Shown: piece after piece, positions 37,035 through 64,000 of the stretch
How positions within the stretch are numbered: the first letter of the stretch is position 1
How the letters are laid out: the number at the start of each line of letters is the position of its first letter
Assembly: GCA_963716815.1 (NCBI GenBank)
Contig: CAVQUM010000003.1
Coordinates: 261,320-325,319, forward strand
Source: an uncultured Chloroflexia bacterium
GTDB lineage: Bacteria; Chloroflexota; Limnocylindria; Limnocylindrales; CSP1-4
Length of the DNA: 64,000 nucleotides
Reading direction: 5' to 3'
Position numbers and translations under genes: made by a program
The notes under the pieces: generated by a model
What the model saw: only the letters and a program-made list of their open reading frames with translations
Database searches by the model: none
Told to the model about the DNA's origin: nothing

Positions 37035-37221
37035 GCAGGTCCCCCTTCTTTCATGCGGGCCGGGTTCGCTAGTGGCTCAGCACGGTCCATAGCGGCCATG
37101 GTCACGGGGCCGTGCTTCGCAGCCTCCCGCTATCGATGATTCTCCCCCGGCTGGCAAGGATGGAGTAGCCTACATCGGCCACCGCCCGCCCTTCAAGTGG
37201 CATGGCCACCTATGCCGGCAG

Positions 37222-53456: not shown

Positions 53457-53532
53457 GCCCCCGTAGCTCAGTGGATAGAGCGGCAGCGTCCTAAGCTGCG
53501 CGTCGGCGGTTCGAATCCGTCCGGGGGCGCCA
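53457..53532 (+). tRNA. tRNA-Arg (anticodon CCT), CCA encoded
   Basis: The acceptor is GCCCCCG/CGGGGGC, the D-arm GTAGCTCAGTGGATAGAGC, the anticodon stem GCAGC/GCTGC with loop GTCCTAA, the T-arm GGCGGTTCGAATCCGTC, and the 3' end is G-CCA. Confidence 0.92.
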
Positions 53533-53605
53533 GCCCATGCCTAACCCATGAGCATGTGCGAAGCGACGGCCGTGTCAAGCCAGGTGTCGATGCTGTTCTT
53601 CTGCC
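53533..53605. repeat. Segment X, copy A: about 73 nt directly 3' of tRNA-Arg, repeated at 57607..57678
   Basis: My hand alignment gives roughly three-quarters identity (gcccatgcctaacccatgagcatgtgcgaagcg... against gctcatacccaacctatgagctgtgcgaggcg...). A conserved 7-bp hairpin lies at its start. Confidence 0.6.
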
Positions 53606-53642
53606 GTCGGCCGCTGGCCGGACTCGGCGCGCTACGGTCAGG

Positions 53643-53853
53643 GAAATCGGAAAAGACTCCTCGCCTCGACCCCTCGTACACATAGAGGTCGGTGCCACGT
53701 GCTTCACTAGCACGGACGCAGACCGGTTCGGGAGAGGAGGGGTATGGATCCGGAGGTCGTGGTGCGAGCGCAACACGGTGACGAGGCCGCGTTCGAGTCG
53801 ATCTCCGTCGCCGGTTACCCGCGCCTCTATCGCATCGCCTACGGCATCCTACG
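53643..53853. repeat. Segment Y, copy A: duplicate of the ECF-sigma upstream region plus its first 37 codons (partner 59773..59983)
   Basis: About 210 nt align by eye with only scattered mismatches, from gaaatcggaaaagactcct to ggcatcct. Similarity stops abruptly at 53853/59983. Confidence 0.8.
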
Positions 53854-53854
53854 A
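53744..53854 (+). pseudogene. 5' fragment of an ECF sigma factor gene (first 37 codons only)
   Basis: 'MDPEVVVRAQHGDEAAFESISVAGYPRLYRIAYGILR' against the intact 'MDREVVVRAQHGDEAAFESITVAAYPRLYRIAYGILR' at 59874. The sequence after it is unrelated and Arg-rich. Confidence 0.75.
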
Positions 53855-53986
53855 CCTCTCGATCGCGTCGGATGGATCGGCCTGGATGGTCGTGCGTCGG
53901 AAGTCCGGGCCGGACGCGACCAGGCCCGACGGCATCTACATCCTCGATCCGGATCGCGCGACGGGTCAGCGCACCGGAGGATGACG

Positions 53987-54805
53987 ATGAAGCGCGTGAT
54001 CACGATGATGCTCCTCGCCATGGCCGTGCTCGCGCCCACGACGACGGCTCAGGACGCGTCCGCGGTCCCAGGCGCCGACGCGGCCACCTCCATACCGGTG
54101 CGCTTCGCGGTCGCCCCGACCGACCCCGCCGACGTCGACGAGCAGCCGTACTCCTTCGCTGAGCTCCAGGAGCGTGCCGACCGCGTCCACCGATCGCTCG
54201 TCGATGCGGGCTACCCGAACGTGGCCACCTCGACCCACATCACCGGCGGCGGGGTCATCCCGGTCTCGGTCCAGCAGATGGGCGATCTCCCGGCCGACCC
54301 CGACGGCGTCCTCGCCTTCGTGCCAGAGGACCTGCGAGCCGATGTCGAGCTCGATGTGACCGTGGCCCCGCCGCGTCCGTCGGCCGAGCCCGGGGCGTGG
54401 GGTCCGCTCGCGGTCGTCTATCGACCGCAGGGCTTCGGTCCGGGTGTCGGGCTGGGTCCGGTGACGCTGCGCATCGGCGACCGTTGTGTCTGGCTTGAGT
54501 CGGCGAACGGGAAGTACGCCACGACCATCGTGTGGGAAGGCAACCACGTCGACTGGCGACCGACCAACCGGCGCATCATCTTCACCGACCGCAAGGGCCG
54601 GACCGTAAGCCTCTCCGATAGGGATCGCATCGAGGGCGGCGGCGTCAGCATCTGGCGGCCCGTGGGCGAGGGGAGCTCTGATCAGCCGCGGGCAGACTCG
54701 ATCCTGGAGGCCATGACCGCCGTGCCCGACGACGATTGGCTACAGGAGCCGCACGCATCGTGTCCGGAGTCACTCTTCTTCGTGACCGAGCTGGAGGTCG
54801 AGTGA
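53987..54805 (+). CDS. Secreted hypothetical protein
   Basis: RBS ggagg lies 6 nt upstream. The signal peptide is 'MKRVITMMLLAMAVLAPTTTAQ', and the 272-aa frame is intact. Confidence 0.55.
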   Translation: MKRVITMMLLAMAVLAPTTTAQDASAVPGADAATSIPVRFAVAPTDPADVDEQPYSFAELQERADRVHRSLVDAGYPNVATSTHITGGGVIPVSVQQMGDLPADPDGVLAFVPEDLRADVELDVTVAPPRPSAEPGAWGPLAVVYRPQGFGPGVGLGPVTLRIGDRCVWLESANGKYATTIVWEGNHVDWRPTNRRIIFTDRKGRTVSLSDRDRIEGGGVSIWRPVGEGSSDQPRADSILEAMTAVPDDDWLQEPHASCPESLFFVTELEVE

Positions 54806-55887
54806 TGCGGCTCTCGATGACCATCGAGTCACACCGGCGCCTTCTCCGCGTCGCTGCGACGACCGCCCTGGTCGTGGCATCCGTGATCGGCGGAAGCGCG
54901 GCCCTCGCCGCGATCGGGCCCGAGCCGACCGAGCCGACCCTGGCGGGCACCTGGTCAAGATCCCGGACGCCCCGTGGGGCACGGTGTTCCCGGCCGCGGC
55001 CTTCACCGGAGAGGAGATGCTCGTCGTCGACCTCGAGAGCGGTCGCACGCCGAACCTACCACCCGGAGAACCGGACCTGGACCCCCACGAGACGGCACCG
55101 AAGGCGTTCGACGGCCTCAGCCCGTCGGTCTGGACCGGCACGGAGCTGCTGGTGTTCGACCGCTACAAGGCCGGCCGTTCCTACGCCTACGACCCCGAGG
55201 CGCGGAGCTGGCGCCGGCTCGCCCCCTCGCCGCTCAAGGAGCGGTGGCATGCGGAGTGGGCTGGCGGGCAGGTCGTGGTCCGCGGACGCACGAAGCTCGA
55301 ATGGGCGGCGTACGACGTGGCGGCCGATACATGGCGGTCGCTGCCGGCCCCGCCCGGCGCCCATCGGTTGTGGAGCGTGCACTGGACCGGCGACACGCTG
55401 CTCGCCGTGGCGGGTGGATACGGGGAGCGCCTTCCCCATGTGGTCGCACTGGACCTCGATACCGATATCTGGGGAAAGCCGATGAAGGGCCCAGCGGACG
55501 GGGCCCCGCGGAACCCGAGTGGATTGGCGACCAGCTCGTCTTCGTCTTCGGGTGGCCGTGGGACGACGAGCCGGTCGCCGACGCGACCTTCGACCTAGCA
55601 AGCGGCGAGTGGACCCTCGTGGACTTCGACTGTCCGATCTTGACCGGCCACGCGTCTTCGACTGGCGAGCTCTTGGTCAGCAGCCACTTCGCCCTCGATC
55701 CGGACACCGGTGTCTGTCAGGCCTTGCCCGACCGTGACCTGTGGGCGGCCTTCACCGAGGACGATGATCGGAGCTGGATCCTCAACCTCTGGACCGGCGA
55801 CCAGTTGCTGTTCTGGTCGGGGCGAACGAGGACACCAGCCCGCCCAAGACCGACGGACTCGCCTTCAGGATCGGCGTGATCCAGTGA
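54805..55887 (+). CDS. Membrane-anchored Kelch/beta-propeller-like repeat protein (paralog of 63086..64000)
   Basis: The ATG overlaps the upstream stop. The TM is 'VAATTALVVASVIGGSAALAA'. It contains 'IPDAPWGTVFPAAAF', 'WTGTELLVFD' and 'YAYDPEARSWRRLAPSPL'. About 3 frame breaks lie near 54950, 55505 and 55825. Confidence 0.5.
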
Positions 55888-55910
55888 TGAAACAGACGAG
55901 GAGGGCGAGT

Positions 55911-57510
55911 ATGGGTCTCGCACTGGCGACTTCCGCGTTGATCATGGCGTCGACGCCCGCCCTCGCCGGTGGGGGCGCGTGGTCCGCCGCGGGCGGCATC
56001 GACGAGTGCGTCGACGCAGGCGCGGAGTTCTTCACCGGTGACCTCCAAGGGGCCAGAGCACGACGTTCTGCTTCACGATGGCGCCGGGGGCGAGGGCCGC
56101 GAACTCCACCTACTTCATGTCCTTCCCTGACACCCGACCGGCATCTGCGCGAGTGATGGCCGCGAACGGCTGCTACCTGGGCGTCGCGATCCCGCAGTGG
56201 GAAGCGAAACGGCGACTCGTCGTCCGCGCTGCCGAGGGCAAGCGAAGGGTCAACGACTACGGCCTGCCCGAGAGGTACGACGGCGAGTTCAGGACGGCGC
56301 GGGCGCGCGTCGACTGCGCACGGGCTGCCAGTGCACCGCCTTCGATCCCGGCCACCCTCCCCGGGTCCGCGGTCGCGGCCGACGAGGCTCCGCTCGATCT
56401 CCTTTCGAAGCTGGAGACCGAGGAGGTCGAGCCTGGCGTGCTTCGCATCGTCTCGGACGGGCACCGTGACCTTTCCGGAGCGACCGCGGCCGATGCGCCC
56501 GAGACCTACGCGGAATACCTCGATACCCACGTCGCGCGCAACCTGGTCGTCGGGCGCGACGGTCGTGTGTGGGTCATCGAGCCTGACCGGCTCTTCCGGC
56601 TCGGGTCGCCAACCGACATCCGATGGCCACAGCCGACCCGACATGTCTCCTTCAACGACCTGGAGGTGTCGCCGGACGGCCGCTTGTGGCGCCTGGTCCC
56701 CATTCGGCGCCTCCAGTCATTCGACGGCGAGACCTGGCGTCGGCACCTCCAGCGCCAGCTCCCGTGGAGCATCGAGATGGAGCCCGACGGCACCCTGTGG
56801 GCTACCTGGACCGAGTCGGGCGTCTGCTTCGAACCCGAGGGCTGCACACCGACCCGGTTGGGACGCCGCGACCGCGAGGGCTGGTCGGTCGTCGACATCC
56901 CGAAGCTCTACCACTACTCCGGGAGCCATCTGGCGGTCACCGGCGACGGCGAGGCCTGGACGTGCTGCAAGCACGACCCACAGAAGCACGGCCCGGGGCT
57001 GCTGCGGTTCGACGGGCGACGCTGGTACGTGGAGCAGCCAGCCACCGGTGTCGATGCGGACATGGTGCTGCGCATGGATGCCGCGGAGGACGGCACCCTC
57101 TGGCTGCGTCGTTCGACATCGGCACTCGAACGCTACCGGGATGGGGTGTGGACGGTCTTCACCGATGCTGACGGCGTCCCGCCACTCGGATACACCGGCA
57201 GTGAGCTGCAGAAGCTGGTGGCCGCGCCGGACGGAGGCGTTTGGGTCGCGCCGGCGGTGTCGACGGGTCATCCCGACGACGAGCTGCGGTGCGACGGCGT
57301 GGCCCACTTCGATGGGTCGATCTGGACCCGCTATCTCCGTGACACCTGCGTCTTCTCGATGGACGTCGCGCCGGACAGATCCTCTGGCTCCAAGCCGCCA
57401 GGGTCGACATCGAGAACATCGACTCGTACCGGCTCGGCGAGACCGTGGAGCCAGTCCAGTCCTACGCCATCAGGCCGGGAGGTGGCAAGCGCTCGGCACC
57501 CGGCGACTGA
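55911..57510 (+). CDS. Secreted protein with two-component-regulator-propeller-like repeats
   Basis: RBS aggagg. The signal peptide is 'MGLALATSALIMASTPALAGG'. The repeats include 'GRDGRVWVIEPDRLFRLG', 'SPDGRLWRLV...FDGETWRR', 'EPDGTLWATW', 'AEDGTLWLRR...YRDGVWTVF' and 'APDGGVWVAP...FDGSIWTRY'. Frame breaks lie near 56050 and 57380. Confidence 0.5.
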
Positions 57511-57535
57511 GCAGGACGAGCAGGCCAGCACGTCG

Positions 57536-57608
57536 ACCCAGCGGGTACCACGCGAGCGGGTCCGACGGTTTGCTTTCCGAGCCCCCGAGTCCGTCCGGGG
57601 GCGCCAGC
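57536..57608. repeat. Right-end segment plus orphan tRNA-Arg 3' end, copy B
   Basis: 57590..57608 (tccgtccgggggcgccagc) is identical to 53516..53534. 57536..57589 aligns with 59692..59743 (acccagcgGgtaccaCgcGagcgg...ggtttgcTttccgAgcccc). Confidence 0.75.
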
Positions 57609-57678
57609 TCATACCCAACCTATGAGCTGTGCGAGGCGTCGGTCGTGTCAAGCCTGGTGCGGATGCGGTCTCCTCGGG
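57607..57678. repeat. Segment X, copy B
   Basis: See 53533..53605. It starts with the perfect hairpin gctcata-cccaacc-tatgagc. Confidence 0.6.
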
Positions 57679-57680
57679 AC

Positions 57681-57708
57681 TTGACGAGCGTAGCAACAAC
57701 TATATCGT
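57681..57708 (+). promoter_or_regulatory. Candidate sigma-70-type promoter giving a leaderless or near-leaderless transcript
   Basis: TTGACG (57681), a 16-nt spacer, then TATCGT (57703). The ATG at 57716 lies 7 nt after the -10 hexamer. This stretch is the most AT-rich in the neighbourhood. Confidence 0.4.
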
Positions 57709-57715
57709 TATCGCA

Positions 57716-58416
57716 ATGGTTGATACTACGCCTCGACCCATGGAGCGCTACCTGACGACGGCACAAGCCGCCAAGCTGCTGGGCGTTCACAGCCGCGAGT
57801 CCGTGCGCTGATCGCGAGTGGCGAGTTGCGTGCGACGAAAGCTGGACACGACTGGAGCGTCATGCGCTCGGACGTCGAGGCACGCGTCGATCGCGACGCC
57901 CCAGGAGGGCGACCCCTATCTCCCGCCTCGGCGTGGGGACTGTTCGAGCTGGCCGACGGTCGCGTCCCCGGTTGGCTGGACCGCCAACAGCGCTGGCGGG
58001 TATCGAAGTTCATCCCCCGCCTCCGTTCCGGTGATCTCAGTGGTCGCTTGGTTCGACGCGCTGTGCGTCGGCCGTTCCACGTCCATCCCGGGGTGATGGA
58101 ACGACTTCGTACGGACAGCGCGCTCATGCTGACCGGCACCTCGGTAAGTGGTCCGCTCCGACTCGGACTCACCGGCGGACCAGACAGTGTCGAGGCCTAC
58201 GTCAGCGAGCGTGATGTCGAGGACGTCGTGCGGCGCTACTTCCTGGAGCCAGCCGACGACGATGCCAACGTCCTCCTGCGCGTCGTCCCGGACCTCGGCT
58301 CATCCTGGCTGTCCCGTGAGGTCGCGCCATCCGCAGCCGTGGCACTCGACCTGCTGGAACACCCGGACCCACGAGCCCGCCAGGCCGGGCGTGATCTGTT
58401 GCGAGCCAAGCCGTGA
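57716..58416 (+). CDS. HTH (excisionase/MerR-like) DNA-binding protein with a C-terminal domain; candidate AbiEi/MenA-like antitoxin
   Basis: Contains 'YLTTAQAAKLLGVHSRESVRALIASGELRATKAGHDWSVMRSDVEARV', with a frame break near 57800. An approximately 170-aa C-terminal domain follows. It overlaps the next gene by 4 nt (GTGA). Confidence 0.55.
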
Positions 58417-59150
58417 CGGATGTCACCGCGCTGCATCCAGTCGACCAGCAGCAGGCTGCCGTCTGGCGGCTGGCGAAGGAGGTGGCGTCGGCGTTCGCCG
58501 GGTTGCCGTTCGTCCTGATCGGCGGCCTGATGGTCCAGCTGCTCGAGGCCGAACGCGGAGTTGTCAGCGGCTTCGCGACCGGCGACATGGATGTCGTCCT
58601 CGACGTCCGCCCTCTAACGGGTGCGACAGCACGTGCCGCAGCCGCGTCGGTGGATGCCGGCTTCGCGCCTGAGCGATACGACGACGACCTGACCTACAGG
58701 TTCGTCCGTGGCGACGACGTCGTGGACCTGCTCGCTCCCGACCATCTCGGTGTCCGGACGAGCATCGTGACCGTGCCGCCCGCCTCGACCCTCCCTGCGC
58801 TCGGAGCCCGCCAGGCGCTGAACCGCCTCCGGACCGTCCGGGTCGATGCCGGAGACGGCGCGTTCGACTTGCCCGTGCCGTCACTGACCGGCGCCATCGT
58901 GCTCAAGGCCAGGGTCGTGGAGAGCGCGGCTGGGCGAGCGAGCCTTCCGAAGCACGAGCGCGACCTAGCCCGACTCCTGGCACTCGTCGAGGACCCGGAC
59001 ACTGAGGCGGCGGGGCTGACCCACAAGGAGCGTGGCTACTTGCGCGCACGTGGCGACATGGCTGACACCCGCCATCGAGCGTGGCGCGGGATCGAGAACC
59101 CACTTGACGGGGTCGCCGCCCTCCGCATCCTCGCGGCCGACCGAGCCTGA
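58413..59150 (+). CDS. Pol-beta-fold nucleotidyltransferase; candidate AbiEii/MenT-like toxin
   Basis: 245 aa, intact. It contains 'FVLIGGLMVQLL...TGDMDVVLD' (G-G ... D-x-D), 'VVDLLAP', 'AIVLKARV' and 'KHERDLARLLAL'. Confidence 0.55.
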   Translation: MTDVTALHPVDQQQAAVWRLAKEVASAFAGLPFVLIGGLMVQLLEAERGVVSGFATGDMDVVLDVRPLTGATARAAAASVDAGFAPERYDDDLTYRFVRGDDVVDLLAPDHLGVRTSIVTVPPASTLPALGARQALNRLRTVRVDAGDGAFDLPVPSLTGAIVLKARVVESAAGRASLPKHERDLARLLALVEDPDTEAAGLTHKERGYLRARGDMADTRHRAWRGIENPLDGVAALRILAADRA

Positions 59151-59277
59151 TCTGGCCTAAGGGCTGATAGCGGCCGAACCTCGACGCGGCCCTCCATGCC
59201 GTAGTGGTTGCGTTCGTCGTCATGCGCATCGCGCCCAGCGGCATGATCGCCGTGATGTCGGTGCTCTTGCTGTTCGC

Positions 59278-59394
59278 ATGATGGCCGGCGTCCTGCGCAT
59301 CGCCATGGTCGTCCTGATGCCTGAGGTCTTCTTGCCGGTCGTGTTCCTGATCATCCACTTCGTCGTGCTCATCATCATCCTCGGCGTGCCTTAG
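59278..59394 (+). CDS. Candidate 38-aa hydrophobic peptide
   Basis: 'MMAGVLRIAMVVLMPEVFLPVVFLIIHFVVLIIILGVP*'. By hand count, wobble positions are G/C in 36 of 38 codons, against about 24 of 38 for the codon-aligned antisense His/Asp-rich ORF 58903..59619. Confidence 0.3.
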   Translation: MMAGVLRIAMVVLMPEVFLPVVFLIIHFVVLIIILGVP

Positions 59395-59691
59395 ATCGCC
59401 GTGCCCGTGGTGATGATCGTACGCGATCCACGTGGTCCCGGTGCCCGTGCTTGTCGCGCCCGTTCTCGTCATAGCCTGCTCTACCGGATCGGCAGCAGCA
59501 GGGCCGGCGCCAGCAGCGTTGGCAGTAGCGGTTGTGGTACCGGCAGCGTCGTCGCCGCCAACCACATCATCGGCGGCGGTGGCTTCGTCATCGCTGTCAC
59601 CAGCAGAAGTCGGCGACATGAGAGTCTGGATAGACCCTCACTGGACGACCGGTTCCGGCGACCTGCGGAGCCGATCTGACGGCTACTCGCT

Positions 59692-59761
59692 ACCCAGCGC
59701 GTACCAAGCCAGCGGTCGGGTGGTTTGCCTTCCGCGCCCCTTCATCCGTCCGGGGGCGCCA
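59692..59761. repeat. Right-end segment plus orphan tRNA-Arg 3' end, copy C
   Basis: 59744..59761 (atccgtccgggggcgcca) is identical to 53515..53532. The upstream 52 nt align with 57536..57589. Confidence 0.75.
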
Positions 59762-59772
59762 TGGCCACGCAC

Positions 59773-59983
59773 GAAATCGGAAAAGACTCCTGGACTCAAC
59801 CCCTCGTGCACATAGAGGTCGGCCGGGCGTGCTTCACTAGCATGGAGACAGACCGGTTCGCAACAGGAGGGGTATGGATCGGGAGGTCGTGGTGCGAGCG
59901 CAACACGGTGACGAGGCCGCATTCGAGTCGATCACCGTCGCTGCCTACCCGCGCCTCTACCGCATCGCCTATGGCATCCTGCG
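59773..59983. repeat. Segment Y, copy C: native ECF-sigma upstream region plus 5' coding end
   Basis: See 53643..53853. Confidence 0.8.
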
Positions 59984-60434
59984 CGAGCACGGTGCCGCCG
60001 ACGATGCTGCCCAGACCGCGCTCGTGGACATCTGGCGCCGCCTCCCACGACTGCGTGGCCCTGAGAAGTTCGACGGTTGGTCGTACCGGCTGCTGGTCCG
60101 CATCTGCTACGCCGAGGCCAAGCGCCGGCCGAAGTGGCTGCCCGGCGAAGCCATCACGCGCTCGGTCGAGCCTCGCGCCGCCGATCCGTTCGGCACCGTG
60201 CTCGACCAGGACCAGCTGGAGCGGGCGTTCGGGGCCCTGACCGTCGACCACCGCGCGGTCATCGTCCTGCGCTACCTGCTGGACCTGCCCCTCGAGCAAG
60301 TGGCGCAGGCGCTCGACATCCCCGTCGGCACGGTCGGCTCGCGACTCCATCGTGCACTCGAGGTCCTGCGCGCGAGCGTCGAGGCTGGCGAACGCACCGC
60401 ACCGCTCGAAGCCAACTCGGAGGGACGCTCATGA
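59874..60434 (+). CDS. ECF-type RNA polymerase sigma-70 family factor
   Basis: 186 aa, intact, with RBS aggagggg. Region 2 is 'AAFESITVAAYPRLYRIAYGIL...AQTALVDIWRRL' and region 4 is 'VIVLRYLLDLPLEQVAQALDIPVGTVGSRLHRA'. Confidence 0.88.
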   Translation: MDREVVVRAQHGDEAAFESITVAAYPRLYRIAYGILREHGAADDAAQTALVDIWRRLPRLRGPEKFDGWSYRLLVRICYAEAKRRPKWLPGEAITRSVEPRAADPFGTVLDQDQLERAFGALTVDHRAVIVLRYLLDLPLEQVAQALDIPVGTVGSRLHRALEVLRASVEAGERTAPLEANSEGRS

Positions 60435-61111
60435 GCGACGAGCTGTTCACCCCGTTCGTGCAGTCCTGGCTCCGCTCGAGCGACCTGGTGCCACCGGAGC
60501 CCCTCGACCGAGCCGACCGCGTGATGGCTCGCGTCCGGTCCACGCGCCAGCTCGGCCGCCACTGGCCACCGGAGGTCTTGGTGACCGAGGTCAAGCCGCC
60601 CACCGACGGAGCCGACTTCGGCGGCCTCCCCGCTCGGGCTCGGCAGGTCCGCTGGCTGCCGAGCCGGTTCTCGGTCGTCATCGCGATGCTCGTCGCGGTG
60701 GTGGCACTGCTGACCGCCAACCTGCTCCTGCTCGACCCGGCACCGATCGAGCAGCGAAGCGTCGTCCCACTCCCGGGAGCCGAGGAATCCGCCGCGCCGG
60801 CCAAGGCCATCGGCTGGATCACCCAACCCGTTCGGCTCGAAGCGGACGCGCTGCGACTCCACCTCGGCGACGCCGTCGCGACGGGCGCAGCCGAAGCCTC
60901 GGTCGAGGGCTCTGGAGACCAGGCTCGCCGGCGAGAGCTGGCAGTCGACTGGCGTGAGAACGACACGTGGTACCAGCTGCAGTTGTACCTCGCTGCCGAC
61001 GACACGCACTGGTGGATCAGCGAGCTCATCACCACCGACGGCACCGAGGCCGGCAACACCGTCACCTTCGATACCGCGTCCCTGCCTCGGATCCGCTCGG
61101 AGACGCGCTGA
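60431..61111 (+). CDS. Single-pass membrane protein translationally coupled to the ECF sigma (candidate anti-sigma factor); it may continue into the next ORF
   Basis: ATGA overlap with the sigma stop. The cytoplasmic N-terminus is 'MSDELFTPFVQSWL' and the TM is 'FSVVIAMLVAVVALLTANLLLL', followed by an extracytoplasmic domain. There is no zf-HC2 motif. Confidence 0.55.
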   Translation: MSDELFTPFVQSWLRSSDLVPPEPLDRADRVMARVRSTRQLGRHWPPEVLVTEVKPPTDGADFGGLPARARQVRWLPSRFSVVIAMLVAVVALLTANLLLLDPAPIEQRSVVPLPGAEESAAPAKAIGWITQPVRLEADALRLHLGDAVATGAAEASVEGSGDQARRRELAVDWRENDTWYQLQLYLAADDTHWWISELITTDGTEAGNTVTFDTASLPRIRSETR

Positions 61112-61192
61112 TCGACGATCTTCGACTCGTGGGCACGCCCGACACCGACAGCACCCTGACCGGGCCGGTCGACCTGGAGTTCGACGGATTCG

Positions 61193-63095
61193 GTGCTCCG
61201 GGCCTTCGAACCCGGCACCGGTGTCGATCGCGTGGCGACGGTGGTCGAGCGCGTGACCGCGACGGGCGACACCGTCGCGCCAGGGGTGCTGCGGGTCGTC
61301 GACGACGGCACGAGCCACGGCCTAGAGAGCGTGTCGCACGTAGCCGTGACCCCCGATGGCCGCGTCTGGGCGGCCACGCCGACCCATCTCTACGAGCTCG
61401 GCGTCGAGGGCGGTCTGCGCGCCATCGACGGTGGACCACAGCGCATCGCCGGCCTCGAGGGCGGCGCGGACGGTCGGCTGCTGGTACCTGCCGATGGTGG
61501 CGGATGGTTGGTCACCGACGGCAAGACCTGGCCGAGCTCGGCCAGGCCGGGGTCGGAGGCGTACAGCGATGCGGCGCTCTCCGCAGATGGCGCGCTCTGG
61601 GGCGTCACCGATGATCCCGTCATGTATGTCGATCGAGCCACCGAGGATGGTGTCTCGACCGCGTTCGGGATGGAGTTCGCCGACCCCTCGGTCGCGGAGC
61701 TCGAGGACAGCCCGAGCGATCGTTCGGTCCTCGCGCTCGCCGACGGCTCGGTGTGGGTCTCGACCGGCCTCGGAGCAGGCCTCGTGCGCTTCGATGGGGC
61801 GGACCCGGAGGCCGGCGGCGTGGGGCACCAGCCGCTCGGCGCCTACGAGGTGGGGCAGCGCGTCCTTGACATCGCGGGCAACGACGACGGGGTGGTCTGG
61901 GCACTCCTCGAGGACTCCGCCGGACAGTATCTCGGGCGTTTCGACGGCTCGACGTGGTCGCTGCATGCCTGGGACGACGTGGTCGCCGGGCTGCCCGTCT
62001 CCACGGCCGGCGGCCGCGGGCGCTCCTGGACGTTCCCGGACGAGATCGGGGCCGTGCTGTCCGATGGTGCAGTGGTCGTCGCGCCCATCGACGTGTACGC
62101 CGACAGCGGCGTATCCGCGCTGCTCCGGTACGACGGCGACGCCTCGACGGTGGCGTTCGACCTTGGGCTCGACGCTGCCGCCGCGACGCCCGATGGTCGC
62201 GCCTGGGCAGCCAGCTGGTCCGGCCTGCACCTGCTCGACCCGGCCCTCTGGCCCGGCGTGGCCGCCGCGACCGGGGCGCCCGACGACCACGTGGCTCCCG
62301 GTCGGCTCGTGCTCGATCTGCGGCCCAGCCGTCGGCTCGAACAAGCCGTGGCCTACCTCCAGCGCCAGACCGAGCAGACCGACCTCGCGCTCGACCCGGA
62401 GGCATTCCTCCGACTGGCTCGTGACCCGAGTGACCACTGGCGCGAGCGCTACCCGTTCCTGCAGGAGGCTCCGGAGGGCAACAGCCTGGAAGGCTTCCTC
62501 GCCTCCGGGACCTACGAGGTGTCGGCGGACATTGCCGCCGAGGACCTCGTCACGCAGATGCTCGAGGAGTGGGACGAACAGATGTCGTGGTACGTCGCGG
62601 AGGCAGACCGGAGAGGTATCGACTTCTACGACGCACTGGTGATCGCCAGTCTCGTCGAGCGCCAGGCCCGCGACGACTCCGACCGCGCGAGGATCGCCGG
62701 CGTCTACTGGAACCGGCTCGACCCCGAGGTCTACGGCGACCAGACCGGTGGCCTGTTGAACGCTGACCCGGCTGTCGTCTACGCCACCGAATTCGATGGC
62801 GCTCGAGGATCTGTCGGTCGCGGACTGGGACGAGCATCGGTTCTGGGAACTGCTCGGCGTCGATGACTACAGCGCCGTCGAGGTCGACCCTGAGTACGCC
62901 TCCTTCCACACCTACCGCTCCACGGGGCTGCCCGACTGGCCCATCGCCACCCCGAGCGCGGCCTCGATGGCGGCGGCGCTGGACCCGGACACCCGCGACG
63001 GCAACCTCTTCTTCTTCGCCTGTCCCGGCTCTGCCACGCACGAATTCGCGCAGACCTTCGAGCAGCACTTGGAGAACACCGCGCGATGCGAGTGA
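61193..63095 (+). CDS. Propeller-repeat domain fused to a C-terminal YceG (MltG-like) domain
   Basis: The repeats include 'TPDGRVWAAT', 'SADGALWGVT', 'LADGSVWVST...VRFDG', 'NDDGVVWALL...GRFDGSTWS' and 'TPDGRAWAAS'. Then come 'LEGFLASGTYEV', 'IASLVERQAR', 'IAGVYWNRL', 'LNADPAVVYA' and 'YRSTGLPDWPI'. A frame break lies near 62790 (gaattcgatg where gaatcgatg is expected). Confidence 0.6.
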
Positions 63096-64000
63096 TCTTG
63101 GCGTTGGCGCTCTCGCTGGTGCTGTCGTCTGCGGCCGTCACGCAGGCGGCAGACCGGCCCACGCCGAACGAGCTGGCCATCTTCTCCGACGACGTCCAGC
63201 GGCAGGTGATGCCCTGGCTCGAACAGCAACCCGAGTACGCAGGTATGTGGCTCGACCGCGACGCAGTCCAGATCGTCGTGAGCCTGACCGACGCGGACCC
63301 CGAGATCATCGCCGGCCTCGATGCCCGGGTCCCCGGTGGCGGCGACGGCTGGCGCCTGGAGGTGCCCGCCTACACCTGGAAGCAACTGAGCCGGGCGACG
63401 CACGAGGCACACAGGATCAGGTCCGGGTTGCCCGGCGCCGGGCGGCTGGAGTCGTCCTGGGTCGATGTCGAGGAGAACCGGGTCGGCCTGCGCTTCGAGC
63501 GCGGCGCCATCAAGCGCGCAGACATGGCGTCGGCCGAACGCAAGTGGGAGCGGGCGCTGGGCGTGCCAAGCCACATCTGGCGCGAGGAGATCGCGCCGTC
63601 GACACCGCACGCCGGCGAGTGGGAAAAGCTGCCCGACGCCCCGTGGGGCGCAGCCAACGCCGTCGCGCTGGCCGTCGATGGGGACATGCTCGTGCTCGAG
63701 CCCGAGACAGGCCGGGTCCTCCGCTACGACACGGACGTCCGCACGTGGAAGCGCGGAGCACGGGCACCGAAGCGCTTCGACTACTGGGCCCCGTGGGTCT
63801 GGACCGGCACGGAGCTGGTCGTGCTCGACGGCCGTCGATCCGCGCGTGTGTTCGCGTACGACCAGGCGGAGGATCACTGGCGTGGACTCCCGCGATCACC
63901 CCTTGACGGGGCGGACCTCGCGGTCTGGGCTGATGGGCGAGTGGTCGTGGCGGACATCGAGACGGAGAGCGAGGTCGACATCGAGCGCTCGCTGGCTGTG
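63086..64000 (+). CDS. Secreted protein with a Kelch/propeller-like C-terminal region; the 3' end lies outside the window
   Basis: ATG at 63086. I checked by hand that 305 codons are open to the window edge. The signal peptide is 'MRVILALALSLVLSSAAVTQA'. 'LPDAPWGAANAVALAV', 'WTGTELVVLD' and 'FAYDQAEDHWRGLPRSPL' parallel 54805..55887. Confidence 0.6.
   Translation, partial: MRVILALALSLVLSSAAVTQAADRPTPNELAIFSDDVQRQVMPWLEQQPEYAGMWLDRDAVQIVVSLTDADPEIIAGLDARVPGGGDGWRLEVPAYTWKQLSRATHEAHRIRSGLPGAGRLESSWVDVEENRVGLRFERGAIKRADMASAERKWERALGVPSHIWREEIAPSTPHAGEWEKLPDAPWGAANAVALAVDGDMLVLEPETGRVLRYDTDVRTWKRGARAPKRFDYWAPWVWTGTELVVLDGRRSARVFAYDQAEDHWRGLPRSPLDGADLAVWADGRVVVADIETESEVDIERSLAV

What the first reader, a model, noticed from the sequence alone, without database searches (positions are those of the whole stretch)
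57681..59150. Two-gene HTH + nucleotidyltransferase cassette (AbiE/MenAT-like toxin-antitoxin architecture) as the main cargo of the 2.1-kb module
**Seen directly**
- The first gene has an excisionase-type HTH followed by an approximately 170-aa domain.
- It overlaps by 4 nt an intact 245-aa protein carrying Pol-beta NTase hallmarks: 'IGG...' then 'GDMDVVLD', a third acidic 'VVDLL', and 'KHERDLARLL'.
- A TTGACG-N16-TATCGT promoter sits so that the first ATG is essentially leaderless, in a locally AT-rich patch.

**Established knowledge**
- AbiEi/AbiEii (type IV TA / abortive infection) and MenA/MenT (type VII) pair a DNA-binding antitoxin with an NTase toxin, and are often carried on integrated elements.

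**Inference**
- This is a TA or defence-type module. The specific subfamily is not clear from motifs alone.
- The N-terminal HTH is excisionase-like rather than the usual AbiEi winged helix.
Basis: partly seen in the sequence, partly recalled or inferred. Interest (0 to 1): 0.72.

Follow-up and report, generated by a model that had tools for sequence, protein, structure and literature searches.

The report
AbiE/MenAT-type toxin-antitoxin pair, variant antitoxin
This is a two-gene toxin-antitoxin operon of the known AbiE/MenAT kind (a DNA-binding antitoxin plus a nucleotidyltransferase toxin that probably disables tRNAs), from a large uncharacterised branch whose antitoxin uses an excisionase-type DNA-binding domain in place of the usual winged helix.

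Summary
A promoter (57681-57708) drives a leaderless gene 1 (57716-58416), which has an excisionase-type HTH and a ~170-aa C-terminal domain. Gene 1 is broken by a 1-nt deletion at 57786/57787. It overlaps by GTGA an intact 245-aa gene 2 (58413-59150).

Gene 2 matches no Pfam, NCBIfam or PADLOC model. Its AlphaFold model (pLDDT 95.8) has an NTase fold, closest to Pb27, a DUF1814 protein. Its family profile hits MenT1 (E 5.9e-4). G37, D58, D105 and D184 are invariant, and D60 and K165 are conserved in 96/97. The MenT/AbiEii phosphoacceptor position (T56) is Thr/Ser in 97/97 homologs.

The two genes are adjacent in 82 of 85 loci, and the other three have the toxin gene at a contig end. Of 73 scorable loci, 55 share the 4-nt overlap. 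The pair often sits in tRNA/integrase/TA islands. A palindrome over the -10 box and start codon covaries across 44 loci, which indicates autorepression.

This is a new variant of a known kind and of moderate interest. The frameshift may be an assembly error, because two other genes nearby are also frame-broken.

The parts
57681..57708 (+). Promoter: -35 TTGACG (57681-57686), 16-nt spacer, -10 TATCGT (57703-57708). The start codon lies 7 nt after the -10 box, so the mRNA is leaderless or nearly so.
   Evidence: This is the only sigma-70-like site in 57400-59900, against 0.3 expected. It is conserved in L006 as TTGACA...TATCTT. The TAnnnT box and the ATG sit in fixed columns in 44 loci.
57688..57731 (.). 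Palindromic operator. The arms are 57688-57703 (GCGTAGCAACAACTAT) and 57716-57731 (ATGGTTGATACTACGC). It is centred 6.5 nt upstream of the ATG and covers the -10 box and the first five codons.
   Evidence: Inverted repeat of 16 nt, 81% complementary. L006 has a compensatory change. Across 44 loci, 75% of cells pair, against 61% in shuffles and 33-45% in slid controls. The covariation score is 0.324 against 0.117, reached by 0 of 500 shuffles.
57716..58416 (+). Gene 1, the antitoxin (233 aa once one base is restored). As it stands in the window it is interrupted: the ATG frame stops at TGA 57809-57811, and the rest reads in the next frame to TGA 58414-58416.
   Evidence: 85 homologs were found. 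dN/dS is 0.23 against L006 and 0.16 against L001.
57749..57888 (+). Excisionase/MerR-type HTH (HTH_17), residues 12-58 of the restored protein. The 1-nt deletion at 57786/57787 falls inside it.
   Evidence: TIGR01764 E 2.6e-11 and PF12728 E 3e-10. The profile hits mycobacteriophage Pukovnik Xis 4j2n at E 3.8e-7. Foldseek matches 4j2n, BldC and RacA with probability about 1.0.
57907..58413 (+). C-terminal domain of the antitoxin (residues ~65-233), the presumed toxin-neutralising domain. Invariant residues are G65, R66, W74, R115, Y162, D212, L213 and R220.
   Evidence: Alignment A2. AF2 pLDDT 90. PF09952 AbiEi_2 matches this domain in relatives, always in the same register. There is no confident PDB fold match.
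58413..59150 (+). Gene 2, an intact 245-aa DUF1814-superfamily (MenT1/AbiEii-like) nucleotidyltransferase toxin. Its GTG start overlaps the gene 1 stop (GTGA).
58518..58526 (+). NTase motif I, hG[GS]: I36-G37-G38.
   Evidence: G37 is present in 97/97 homologs; position 38 is G in 74 and A in 23.
58578..58592 (+). Predicted phosphoacceptor T56 and motif II, D58-M-D60 (T-G-D-M-D).
   Evidence: Position 56 is T/S in 97/97, D58 is in 97/97 and D60 in 96/97. The stretch aligns with MenT1 T39-R-D41-V-D43. The roles of these residues are taken from PMC11375011.
58725..58727 (+). Third catalytic acid, D105 (VVDLL).
   Evidence: Present in 97/97 homologs. It aligns with VVVDLL of MenT1.
58905..58964 (+). 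Motif III lysine K165 (58905-58907) and a motif IV-like pentad K180-H-E-R-D184 (D184 at 58962-58964).
   Evidence: K165 is in 96/97 and D184 in 97/97. Position 181 is H in 61, D in 20 and Q in 16. The motif definitions come from PMC3985639.
57535..57606 (+). Left bracketing repeat (context): a degenerate copy of the tRNA-Arg 3' end. It is followed at 57607-57669 by a copy of the 64 nt that lie downstream of the real tRNA.
59690..59761 (+). Right bracketing repeat (context): a second degenerate copy of the tRNA-Arg 3' end. It is followed by the leader of the ECF sigma gene (59874-60434).

Best explanation
This is a bicistronic, translationally coupled toxin-antitoxin operon of the AbiE/MenAT kind.

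Gene 2 encodes a DUF1814-superfamily nucleotidyltransferase whose closest solved relative by sequence is MenT1. By analogy with MenT1, MenT3, MenT4 and AbiEii, it most likely adds nucleotides to the 3'-CCA end of tRNAs. That would block aminoacylation and stop growth. This step is inferred.

Gene 1 encodes a two-domain antitoxin. A dimer of its N-terminal excisionase-type HTH binds the palindrome that covers the -10 box and the start codon of the leaderless operon, and represses it. This is inferred from strong covariation. Its C-terminal domain binds the toxin and neutralises it. The likely route is antitoxin-induced auto-phosphorylation of the strictly conserved Thr/Ser two residues before the DxD motif (T56 here). 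This step is inferred by analogy only.

The pair travels on small tRNA-linked islets and TA/defence islands, where it could act as an addiction or abortive-infection module.

In this window the antitoxin carries a 1-nt deletion inside the HTH. It is either an assembly error or a very recent mutation. A restart at TTG 57826 or ATG 57862 could still yield the neutralising C-terminal domain.
For: Toxin. The AF2 model has pLDDT 95.8 and pTM 0.92. The top Foldseek hit is 5uvd, the P. brasiliensis NTase-like antigen (E 3.9e-5, probability 1.0), followed by CCA-adding enzymes, Cid1 and poly(A) polymerase. Pb27 of P. brasiliensis is listed as a DUF1814 member in bioRxiv 10.64898/2026.01.19.700257.

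The only significant PDB sequence hit of family profile A5 is MenT1 8an4/8an5/8rr5 (E 5.9e-4), with T-x-D-x-D aligned on T39/D41/D43. PF08843 AbiEii is hit by 14/63 and 20/97 relatives, best E 1.1e-7. PADLOC AbiEii models are hit by a few relatives.

G37, D58, D105 and D184 are present in 97/97 homologs. D60 and K165 are in 96/97. Position 56 is T/S in 97/97.

Antitoxin. The HTH_17/excise assignment comes. PF09952 AbiEi_2 hits fall in the C-terminal domain of 10/53 relatives, always in one register, and one reaches the gathering score.

Operon logic. The genes are adjacent on the same strand in 82/85 loci across three phyla; in the other three the toxin gene lies at or within ~110 nt of a contig end. 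The 4-nt overlap occurs in 55/73 loci. S. agalactiae abiEi/abiEii has the same overlap (PMC3985639).

The palindrome sits at a fixed position and shows compensatory changes. dN/dS is 0.16-0.23 for both genes.

Context. The pair is found in TA and defence islands and next to canonical AbiEi/AbiEii pairs, with a tRNA gene and an integrase in one case. It is also on 29 actinobacterial plasmids, where RefSeq names one homolog 'AbiEii/AbiGii toxin family protein'.
Against: The window protein itself matches no Pfam, NCBIfam or PADLOC model, even at E <= 1. The link to MenT1 is only E 5.9e-4 and covers the N-terminal half.

No MenT or AbiEii structure appears in the top 50 Foldseek hits.

The antitoxin C-terminal domain shows no significant similarity to AbiEi_1-type antitoxins (hhalign E 0.16). 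It also has no confident PDB fold match.

Motif IV is +HxxD here, not +DxxD. The Arg equivalent to MenT1 R37 is Phe/Trp in the window's clade, so the substrate or the activity may differ.

Toxicity, the tRNA target, phosphorylation and DNA binding are all untested. In the window as given, the antitoxin is frameshifted.
Confidence: 0.77

Rival explanations
1. In this particular genome the module is a decaying remnant. The antitoxin frameshift is real, the operon is derepressed or dead, and the intact toxin is tolerated, silenced or neutralised by a restart product that contains only the C-terminal domain.
For: There is a 1-nt deletion relative to L006 and L001 and a premature stop at 57809-57811. 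The module lies in a mosaic, integrase-less tRNA-Arg islet that also holds a truncated sigma-gene copy. Nine of 85 related loci also show one of the two genes split between frames. The AbiEi C-terminal domain alone is sufficient for neutralisation (PMC3985639). In-frame restart codons exist at 57826 and 57862.
Against: It is the only lesion in about 1.4 kb, and both genes show purifying selection (dN/dS 0.16-0.23). At least two other genes within 5.5 kb are also frame-broken. These are yceG, split near 62800-62866, and the propeller gene near 57375 (plus reading). That pattern points to assembly or sequencing error. The closest relative, L006, has an intact gene 1.
Confidence: 0.3
2. The pair is a non-toxic regulator plus enzyme. 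The NTase would modify a small molecule such as an antibiotic, as ANT(2'')-Ia in the same superfamily does, or another cellular target. The HTH protein would simply be its transcriptional regulator.
For: The DUF1814 superfamily includes non-toxin members such as ANT(2'')-Ia and fungal Pb27. The best structural match is Pb27 and not a MenT toxin. The Arg that contacts the incoming nucleotide in MenT1 is replaced by an aromatic residue in this clade.
Against: The pairing is strict and the 4-nt overlap is typical of TA operons. The phosphoacceptor Thr/Ser used for toxin control is conserved in 97/97 homologs. The pair sits among PIN/PhD, HigBA, MNT/HEPN and canonical AbiE modules and on plasmids. 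The partner's large conserved C-terminal domain is not needed for a plain repressor. One natural single-chain fusion exists (P0209).
Confidence: 0.1
3. Gene 1 is an excisionase (recombination directionality factor) of the tRNA-Arg islet, and gene 2 is an accessory cargo gene.
For: The HTH matches the TIGR01764 excisionase family and mycobacteriophage Pukovnik Xis. The module is bracketed by tRNA 3'-end repeats. The family is often next to tRNA genes.
Against: The protein is 233 aa with a conserved extra domain, whereas Xis proteins have about 55-80 aa. There is no integrase in the window's islet. Only 1 of 8 annotated contexts has an integrase within 5 kb. The palindrome lies on the gene's own promoter, not at an att site. 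The pairing with the NTase is universal.
Confidence: 0.04

Closest known systems
MenAT1 of Mycobacterium tuberculosis (MenT1 toxin, Rv0078A; PDB 8AN4/8AN5/8RR5)
   Same: MenT1 is the only solved protein that the toxin family profile reaches by sequence (E 5.9e-4). Both are compact DUF1814 NTases. They share motif I GG, T-x-D-x-D with the phosphoacceptor Thr two residues before the first Asp, VVDLL, and a K...D pair (K137/D152 in MenT1, K165/D184 here).
   Different: The antitoxin is unrelated. MenA1 is a 68-aa, largely disordered peptide with no DNA-binding domain and no autoregulation. Here the antitoxin is a 233-aa HTH protein with a promoter palindrome. The toxin here is about 50 aa longer. 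In the window's clade it has Phe/Trp where MenT1 has R37.
AbiEi/AbiEii of Streptococcus agalactiae and Lactococcus (and MenAT3/MenAT4, RlegTA, SanaTA)
   Same: The architecture matches. An upstream two-domain DNA-binding antitoxin overlaps a downstream DUF1814 NTase toxin by 4 nt. Autorepression works through inverted repeats. The toxin has a conserved Thr/Ser phosphoacceptor (T65 in AbiEii, S78 in MenT3). The systems are carried on mobile elements.
   Different: The DNA-binding domain is HTH_17 (excisionase/MerR-like) and not the AbiEi_4 winged helix (AbiEi_4 E 0.14). The C-terminal domain is not detectably related to the AbiEi_1 type and is only marginally related to PF09952. The operon is leaderless, and the operator spans the start codon. 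The toxin falls below the PF08843 threshold.
Excisionase / MerR-like HTH_17 proteins (Pukovnik Xis gp37, BldC, RacA)
   Same: The N-terminal 50 residues share the fold and are recognisable by sequence.
   Different: Those are small single-domain DNA architectural proteins. Here the domain serves as the DNA-binding head of a TA antitoxin that carries a 170-aa effector domain.

Membership tests
DUF1814 / AbiEii-MenT nucleotidyltransferase toxins | Pol-beta-type nucleotidyltransferase fold | tested here: met
   AF2 pLDDT 95.8. Foldseek hits are NTases only at the top. 5uvd (P. brasiliensis NTase-like antigen; Pb27 is listed as DUF1814 in the literature) has E 3.9e-5 and TM 0.53/0.58. CCA-adding enzymes and Cid1 follow.
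DUF1814 / AbiEii-MenT nucleotidyltransferase toxins | Motif I hG[G/S] and motif II DhD (PMC3985639) | tested here: met
   I36-G37-G38 and D58-M59-D60. G37 and D58 are in 97/97 homologs and D60 in 96/97. The spacing from G38 to D58 is 19 residues, against 15 in AbiEii.
DUF1814 / AbiEii-MenT nucleotidyltransferase toxins | Motif III: a conserved Lys in a hydrophobic context | tested here: met
   A-I-V-L-K165-A-R. K is present in 96/97 homologs.
DUF1814 / AbiEii-MenT nucleotidyltransferase toxins | Motif IV: +DxxD pentad | tested here: inconclusive
   The window has K180-H-E-R-D184. The last Asp is in 97/97 homologs. The first Asp is replaced by His in 61/97, and is D in 20 and Q in 16. The motif is therefore a +[H/D/Q]xxD variant.
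DUF1814 / AbiEii-MenT nucleotidyltransferase toxins | Ser/Thr phosphoacceptor two residues before motif II (MenT1 T39, MenT3 S78, AbiEii T65) | tested here: met
   T56. The position is T in 69 and S in 28 of 97 homologs. It aligns with MenT1 T39. Phosphorylation itself was not tested.
DUF1814 / AbiEii-MenT nucleotidyltransferase toxins | Match to Pfam PF08843 (AbiEii), the operational family definition | tested here: not met
   The window protein has no hit at E <= 1. 14/63 and 20/97 relatives do hit (best E 1.1e-7). I therefore place the protein in the DUF1814 superfamily, outside the current Pfam model.
DUF1814 / AbiEii-MenT nucleotidyltransferase toxins | Growth inhibition relieved by the cognate antitoxin; nucleotide addition to tRNA 3'-CCA ends | not testable with these tools
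   Experimental only.
AbiEi / COG5340 antitoxins (AbiEi, MenA3, MenA4) | N-terminal winged HTH (AbiEi_4, PF13338) | tested here: not met
   AbiEi_4 scores E 0.14 and 12.8 bits against a 25-bit cut-off. The domain is HTH_17 (E 3e-10) or TIGR01764. Its structural neighbours are Xis, BldC and RacA.
AbiEi / COG5340 antitoxins (AbiEi, MenA3, MenA4) | C-terminal antitoxicity domain homologous to the AbiEi C-terminal domain | tested here: inconclusive
   PF09952 AbiEi_2 matches the C-terminal domain of 10/53 relatives in one register. The best is 21.2 bits against a 21-bit cut-off. PADLOC AbiEi models hit 1/53 each. hhalign against an AbiEi_1 family profile gives E 0.16. 6Y8Q and 1ZEL are not among the top 50 fold matches.
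AbiEi / COG5340 antitoxins (AbiEi, MenA3, MenA4) | Encoded directly upstream of the toxin with overlapping stop and start; autorepression through promoter inverted repeats | tested here: met
   Adjacency in 82/85 loci. 4-nt overlap in 55/73 loci. The palindrome covaries across 44 loci. DNA binding itself was not tested.
Excisionase (Xis / RDF, TIGR01764) | Small single-domain protein that works with an adjacent integrase at att sites | tested here: not met
   The protein has 233 aa and an extra conserved domain. There is no integrase in the window's islet, and only 1 of 8 annotated contexts has one nearby. The palindrome is at the gene's own promoter.
MNT-HEPN (type VII) modules | A minimal NTase paired with a HEPN RNase partner | tested here: not met
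   No HEPN domain was found in either protein. The partner is always the HTH_17 protein.

The most novel reading that the evidence does not exclude
The pair founds a distinct and very large TA family (about 2,300 toxin clusters at 50% identity, mostly in Chloroflexota and Actinomycetota) that current Pfam, NCBIfam and PADLOC models miss. In this family a MenT1-like toxin is controlled by a structurally new antitoxin domain fused to an excisionase-type HTH. Each antitoxin would have its own locus-specific operator. In the window's clade the nucleotide-contacting Arg is replaced by an aromatic residue, so the toxin might have a substrate or nucleotide specificity different from the known MenT and AbiEii toxins. 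A bolder version is that the Xis-like head also affects excision of the tRNA-linked islets that carry the pair.
Probability: 0.15. Interest if true: 0.6.

Novelty: new variant of a known kind. Interest (0 to 1): 0.4.

Why it matters
DUF1814 (MenT/AbiEii) toxins are being studied intensively as tRNA-modifying growth arresters in M. tuberculosis and as phage-defence effectors. A recent unifying idea is that structurally unrelated antitoxins all work by inducing toxin auto-phosphorylation.

This family would add a further antitoxin architecture: an HTH_17 head plus an uncharacterised C-terminal domain. It is paired with a toxin that keeps the phosphoacceptor in every member examined, so it would be a natural test of that idea.

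There are practical points too. The family is invisible to the current Pfam, NCBIfam and PADLOC models, although it is abundant in soil Chloroflexota and Actinomycetota and on Rhodococcus and Arthrobacter plasmids. Most members are annotated 'hypothetical protein'. The covarying operators give a ready-made data set for reading the DNA-recognition code of HTH_17 domains.

For this window specifically, the finding is an ordinary accessory module.

Tried and rejected
- Direct Pfam, NCBIfam and PADLOC scans of the two window proteins found only the HTH. NCBIfam over all 97 toxin relatives found nothing relevant.
- The first, narrower toxin profile (A1) found nothing in PDB sequences at E <= 10. 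Only the broader A5 profile reached MenT1.
- phmmer of a canonical AbiEii (from L087) against PDB found nothing, so it could not serve as a bridge.
- hhalign of the toxin profile against one canonical AbiEii gave E 0.074. The antitoxin profile against one AbiEi gave E 0.11, and against an AbiEi_1 family profile E 0.16. None is significant, although the aligned motifs are the expected ones.
- The fold search with the antitoxin model matched only the HTH. The C-terminal domain stayed unmatched.
- A metagenome scan for an 'empty site' (tRNA-Arg 3' end followed directly by the sigma-gene leader) gave 0 hits. The leader is not conserved even in L006, so I did not repeat the scan.
- I tested the idea that the bracketing tRNA-like repeats are functional acceptor-stem minihelices, that is, decoys for the toxin. 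The hairpin exists but is no more stable than shuffled sequence (z +0.3 and -1.5). The element occurs only in the window and L006. I rejected the idea in favour of att-type scars.
- I looked for a third gene in 59151-59713. Small hydrophobic ORFs on the + strand compete with an Asp/Glu/His-rich ORF on the - strand. Neither has conserved ends in L006, where the region is only about 300 nt. This is unresolved, and the region is probably non-coding or decayed.
Full report
OBSERVATION

The window has 69.8% GC. At 57681-57708 there is a TTGACG-16-TATCGT promoter-like site. It is the only one in 57400-59900, against 0.3 expected by chance, and it lies in a 51% GC patch. Seven bases after the -10 box an ATG (57716) opens gene 1.

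Residues 12-58 of gene 1 match the excisionase family TIGR01764 (E 2.6e-11) and Pfam HTH_17 (E 3e-10). The AbiEi winged-helix model AbiEi_4 scores only E 0.14. The ATG frame stops at TGA 57809-57811, and the rest of the protein continues in the next frame to TGA 58414-58416.

A DNA alignment with two relatives locates the break. The window reads GGCGT-TCACAG, where L006 has GGCGTCTCACAG and L001 has ACGGTCTCGCAG. One base is therefore missing at 57786/57787. Restoring it gives a 233-aa protein that aligns without gaps to 52 intact homologs.

Gene 2 (58413-59150, GTG start, 245 aa) overlaps the gene 1 stop by GTGA and is intact. The only correction is that the frame break lies about 13 nt upstream of 'near 57800'.

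WHAT GENE 2 IS

The protein itself matches nothing in Pfam, NCBIfam or PADLOC, even at E <= 1. It nevertheless belongs to a large family. The word-indexed search found 143 relatives. An exhaustive profile search found 2,322 clusters at 50% identity with E <= 1e-3, of which 344 have E <= 1e-30.

In a 97-sequence alignment, G37, D58, D105 and D184 are invariant. D60 and K165 are present in 96/97.

The AlphaFold model is very confident (pLDDT 95.8, pTM 0.92). Its structural neighbours in the PDB are nucleotidyltransferases. First is 5uvd, the Paracoccidioides brasiliensis NTase-like antigen (E 3.9e-5, probability 1.0, TM 0.53/0.58). Then come CCA-adding enzymes, NF90/NF45, Megavirus poly(A) polymerase and Cid1. 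A 2026 preprint from the AbiE/MenAT groups lists P. brasiliensis Pb27 as a member of the DUF1814 superfamily.

By sequence, the only significant PDB hit of the broad family profile is MenT1 of M. tuberculosis (8AN4/8AN5/8RR5, E 5.9e-4). The profile's T-x-D-x-D aligns with MenT1 T39-R-D41-V-D43, and VVDLL aligns with VVVDLL. Individually, 14/63 and 20/97 relatives reach Pfam AbiEii PF08843, best E 1.1e-7. A few reach PADLOC AbiEii models.

The literature defines DUF1814 toxins by four motifs: I (hG[G/S]), II (DhD), III (a Lys in a hydrophobic context) and IV (+DxxD) (PMC3985639). More recent work adds a Ser/Thr phosphoacceptor two residues before motif II: MenT1 T39, MenT3 S78 and AbiEii T65 (PMC11375011; preprint).

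In this protein, motifs I-III are present. Motif IV is a +HxxD variant whose last Asp is invariant. The phosphoacceptor position (T56) is Thr or Ser in 97 of 97 sequences.

One difference is specific to the window's clade. The Arg two residues before the phosphoacceptor is R in 80/97 sequences and corresponds to MenT1 R37, which contacts the nucleotide. In the window's own clade it is Phe or Trp.

WHAT GENE 1 IS

All 53 aligned relatives carry HTH_17. The family profile hits mycobacteriophage Pukovnik Xis (E 3.8e-7). The structural neighbours of the N-terminal domain are Xis, BldC and RacA.

The C-terminal ~170 residues are modelled with confidence (pLDDT 90) but have no confident match in the PDB. 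Ten of 53 relatives match Pfam AbiEi_2 (PF09952) in this domain. The register is always the same, profile positions ~45-135 of 143, and one relative reaches the gathering score.

I built a profile of AbiEi_1-type antitoxins from a canonical AbiEi found next to a family member. It shows no significant similarity to gene 1's family (hhalign E 0.16). Gene 1 is therefore not a COG5340 AbiEi. It has a different DNA-binding head, and its effector domain is at most distantly related to one AbiEi family.

THE TWO GENES FORM ONE UNIT

I fetched 85 loci from reference genomes and metagenomes. In 82 of them a gene 1 homolog lies directly upstream on the same strand. In the other three the toxin gene lies at or within ~110 nt of a contig end. 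The loci come from Chloroflexota, many Actinomycetota (Streptomyces, Kitasatospora, Nocardioides, Aeromicrobium, Knoellia, Planosporangium) and one Acidobacteriota genome.

Of the 73 loci I could score, 55 have the same 4-nt [A/G/T]TGA overlap and 6 have TGATG. S. agalactiae abiEi/abiEii also overlap by 4 nt. One database protein, P0209 (489 aa), is a single-chain fusion of both families.

Between the window and its relatives, dN/dS is 0.16-0.23 for both genes.

REGULATION

The window has a 16-nt inverted repeat, 57688-57703 and 57716-57731. It straddles the -10 box and the start codon. L006 has the same repeat with a compensatory G:C to T:A change.

I anchored 44 Chloroflexota-type loci on the gene 1 start codon, without gaps. 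The ATG and a TAnnnT box fall in fixed columns, so the layout is leaderless or nearly so. A palindrome centred 6.5 nt upstream of the ATG recurs with locus-specific, self-complementary arms.

The formal count gives 75% of cells paired. Shuffles give 61.2 +/- 1.1%, and sliding the partner by 1-3 nt gives 33-45%. There are 122 cells with changes on both sides, against 53.8 +/- 5.7 expected. The covariation score is 0.324 against 0.117, reached by 0 of 500 shuffles.

If transcription starts at or just before the ATG, the left arm is not transcribed. The signal is then best read as a DNA operator for a dimeric HTH protein, which means autorepression as in AbiEi and MenA3. This is an inference; binding was not tested.

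CONTEXT

An intact tRNA-Arg(CCT) lies at 53457-53532. Two degenerate copies of its 3' end (57535-57606 and 59690-59761) bracket the module. The 64 nt downstream of the tRNA are duplicated at 57607-57669. The leader and first 110 nt of the ECF sigma gene at 59874 are duplicated at 53643-53853.

The closest relative, L006, is a Chloroflexia MAG. Its toxin is 91% identical, and the DNA is 87.6% identical over the module. It has the same order: tRNA-Arg, a variable islet, a repeat, the TA pair, a repeat. Its gene 1 is intact.

Elsewhere the family is often next to tRNA genes. In 18 of 45 loci a tRNA lies within 6 kb, about 7 are directly adjacent, and five different tRNA types are involved.

The annotated contexts are TA and defence islands. 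In L005 the neighbours are Z1, HATPase, MTase, Fic, BrnT and PIN/PhD genes. In L087 the pair sits next to a canonical AbiEi_1/AbiEii pair and PIN/PhD genes. In L091 the order is tRNA-Gly, a tyrosine integrase, this pair, canonical AbiEi/AbiEii, Gp49/HTH_3 and MNT/HEPN.

Twenty-nine actinobacterial plasmids carry homologs at about 29% identity. RefSeq calls most of them 'hypothetical protein'. One is called 'AbiEii/AbiGii toxin family protein', with an upstream 'DNA-binding protein' that overlaps it by 4 nt.

THE FRAMESHIFT

Gene 1 carries no lesion other than the single missing base. Two other genes within 5.5 kb are also frame-broken. The housekeeping gene yceG/mltG is split: Pfam YceG positions 71-200 are in ORF 61193-62866 and positions 215-274 are in ORF 62796-63095. 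The propeller gene changes frame near 57375 (GC3 profile, plus the translation).

Three breaks in 5.5 kb suggest assembly or sequencing error at least as strongly as three independent pseudogenes. I put the chance that the gene 1 break is biologically real at about 0.3.

If it is real, the operon would lose autorepression. A product starting at TTG 57826 or ATG 57862 would still contain the whole C-terminal domain. In AbiEi that domain alone is sufficient to neutralise the toxin.

MECHANISM, AND HOW SURE EACH STEP IS

Shown by computation: the NTase fold; conserved catalytic and phosphoacceptor residues; obligatory pairing and translational coupling; a covarying palindrome on the promoter; island and plasmid context; purifying selection.

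Inferred by homology: the toxin adds nucleotides to tRNA 3'-CCA ends and blocks aminoacylation, as MenT1, MenT3, MenT4 and AbiEii do.

Inferred by analogy only: the C-terminal domain of the antitoxin binds the toxin and induces auto-phosphorylation of T56.

The main rivals are a non-toxic regulator plus enzyme pair (about 0.1) and an excisionase role for gene 1 (about 0.04). The first is disfavoured by the TA-type gene organisation and context. The second is disfavoured by the protein's size, the lack of integrases nearby and the position of the palindrome.

NOVELTY AND VERDICT

The kind of system is well known. What differs is the antitoxin: an HTH_17 head in place of a winged helix, and an effector domain outside COG5340. 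The toxin branch is MenT1-like and falls below the thresholds of all three profile libraries tested.

No paper in the searchable library links an HTH_17 or excisionase-type antitoxin to DUF1814 toxins. I therefore rate it a new variant of a known kind.

I score interest at about 0.4. The family is large, unannotated and offers a natural test of the auto-phosphorylation model, but it would not surprise a specialist.

Noticed in passing
window 53457-53853, 57535-57669, 59690-59983: tRNA-Arg(CCT) lies at 53457-53532. It is followed by what looks like tandem islet accretion. Two degenerate copies of the tRNA 3' end are present. The 64-nt tRNA-downstream segment is duplicated (53533-53596 ~ 57607-57669). 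The ECF sigma gene leader and its first 110 nt are duplicated (53643-53853 ~ 59773-59983, 89% identity), leaving a truncated sigma N-terminus fused to another ORF at 53744. No integrase is present. L006 has the same layout, with a 2.4-kb first islet where the window has 4.05 kb.
   Followed up: partly
window 61193-63095: The yceG/mltG-like gene is split between two reading frames near 62800-62866. It also appears fused in frame to an upstream Reg_prop propeller ORF. The window seems rich in frameshifts, which suggests an error-prone (possibly long-read) assembly.
   Followed up: partly
window ~57375 (ORF 56078-57625): The propeller-repeat gene upstream of the module changes frame near 57375. 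The GC3-rich frame continues as ...DGQILWLQAARVDIENIDSYRLGETVEPVQSYAIRPGGGKRSAPGD* and ends at 57510. The listed ORF runs on out of frame to 57625.
   Followed up: partly
window 59151-59713: About 560 nt lie between the toxin stop and the right repeat with no convincing gene. Small hydrophobic ORFs on the + strand (59222-59281, 19 aa; 59281-59397, 38 aa, MAGVLRIAMVVLMPEVFLPVVFLIIHFVVLIIILGVP) mirror an Asp/Glu/His-rich ORF on the - strand (58903-59619). Only about 120 nt are conserved in L006, where the region is about 300 nt.
   Followed up: partly
window 37049-37136 (- strand): Rfam match to the c-di-GMP-II-GAG riboswitch aptamer (50.1 bits, gathering score 40, E 6.9e-7).
   Followed up: no
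P0209 (database protein, 489 aa): A single polypeptide that contains a full gene 1 family region (residues 15-235) followed by a full toxin region (252-489). It is either a natural antitoxin-toxin fusion or a read-through artefact.
   Followed up: partly
L087 9100-10620; L091 10892-12384: In two genomes the HTH_17/NTase pair lies within 0.4-1.2 kb of a canonical AbiEi/AbiEii pair. Two DUF1814 systems with different antitoxin types therefore coexist side by side.
   Followed up: no
window 53744-64000; L002, L086: ECF sigma, putative anti-sigma and beta-propeller (Reg_prop, Kelch, BNR) gene sets recur around the TA pair in the window. They also flank family members in L002 and L086. This may simply reflect how abundant such sets are in these Chloroflexota genomes.
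   Followed up: no
related loci L008, L021, L023, L031, L048, L051, L067, L079: In 9 of 85 loci one of the two genes gives hits in more than one reading frame. Many of these loci come from MAG assemblies, so real decay cannot be told apart from sequencing error.
   Followed up: no
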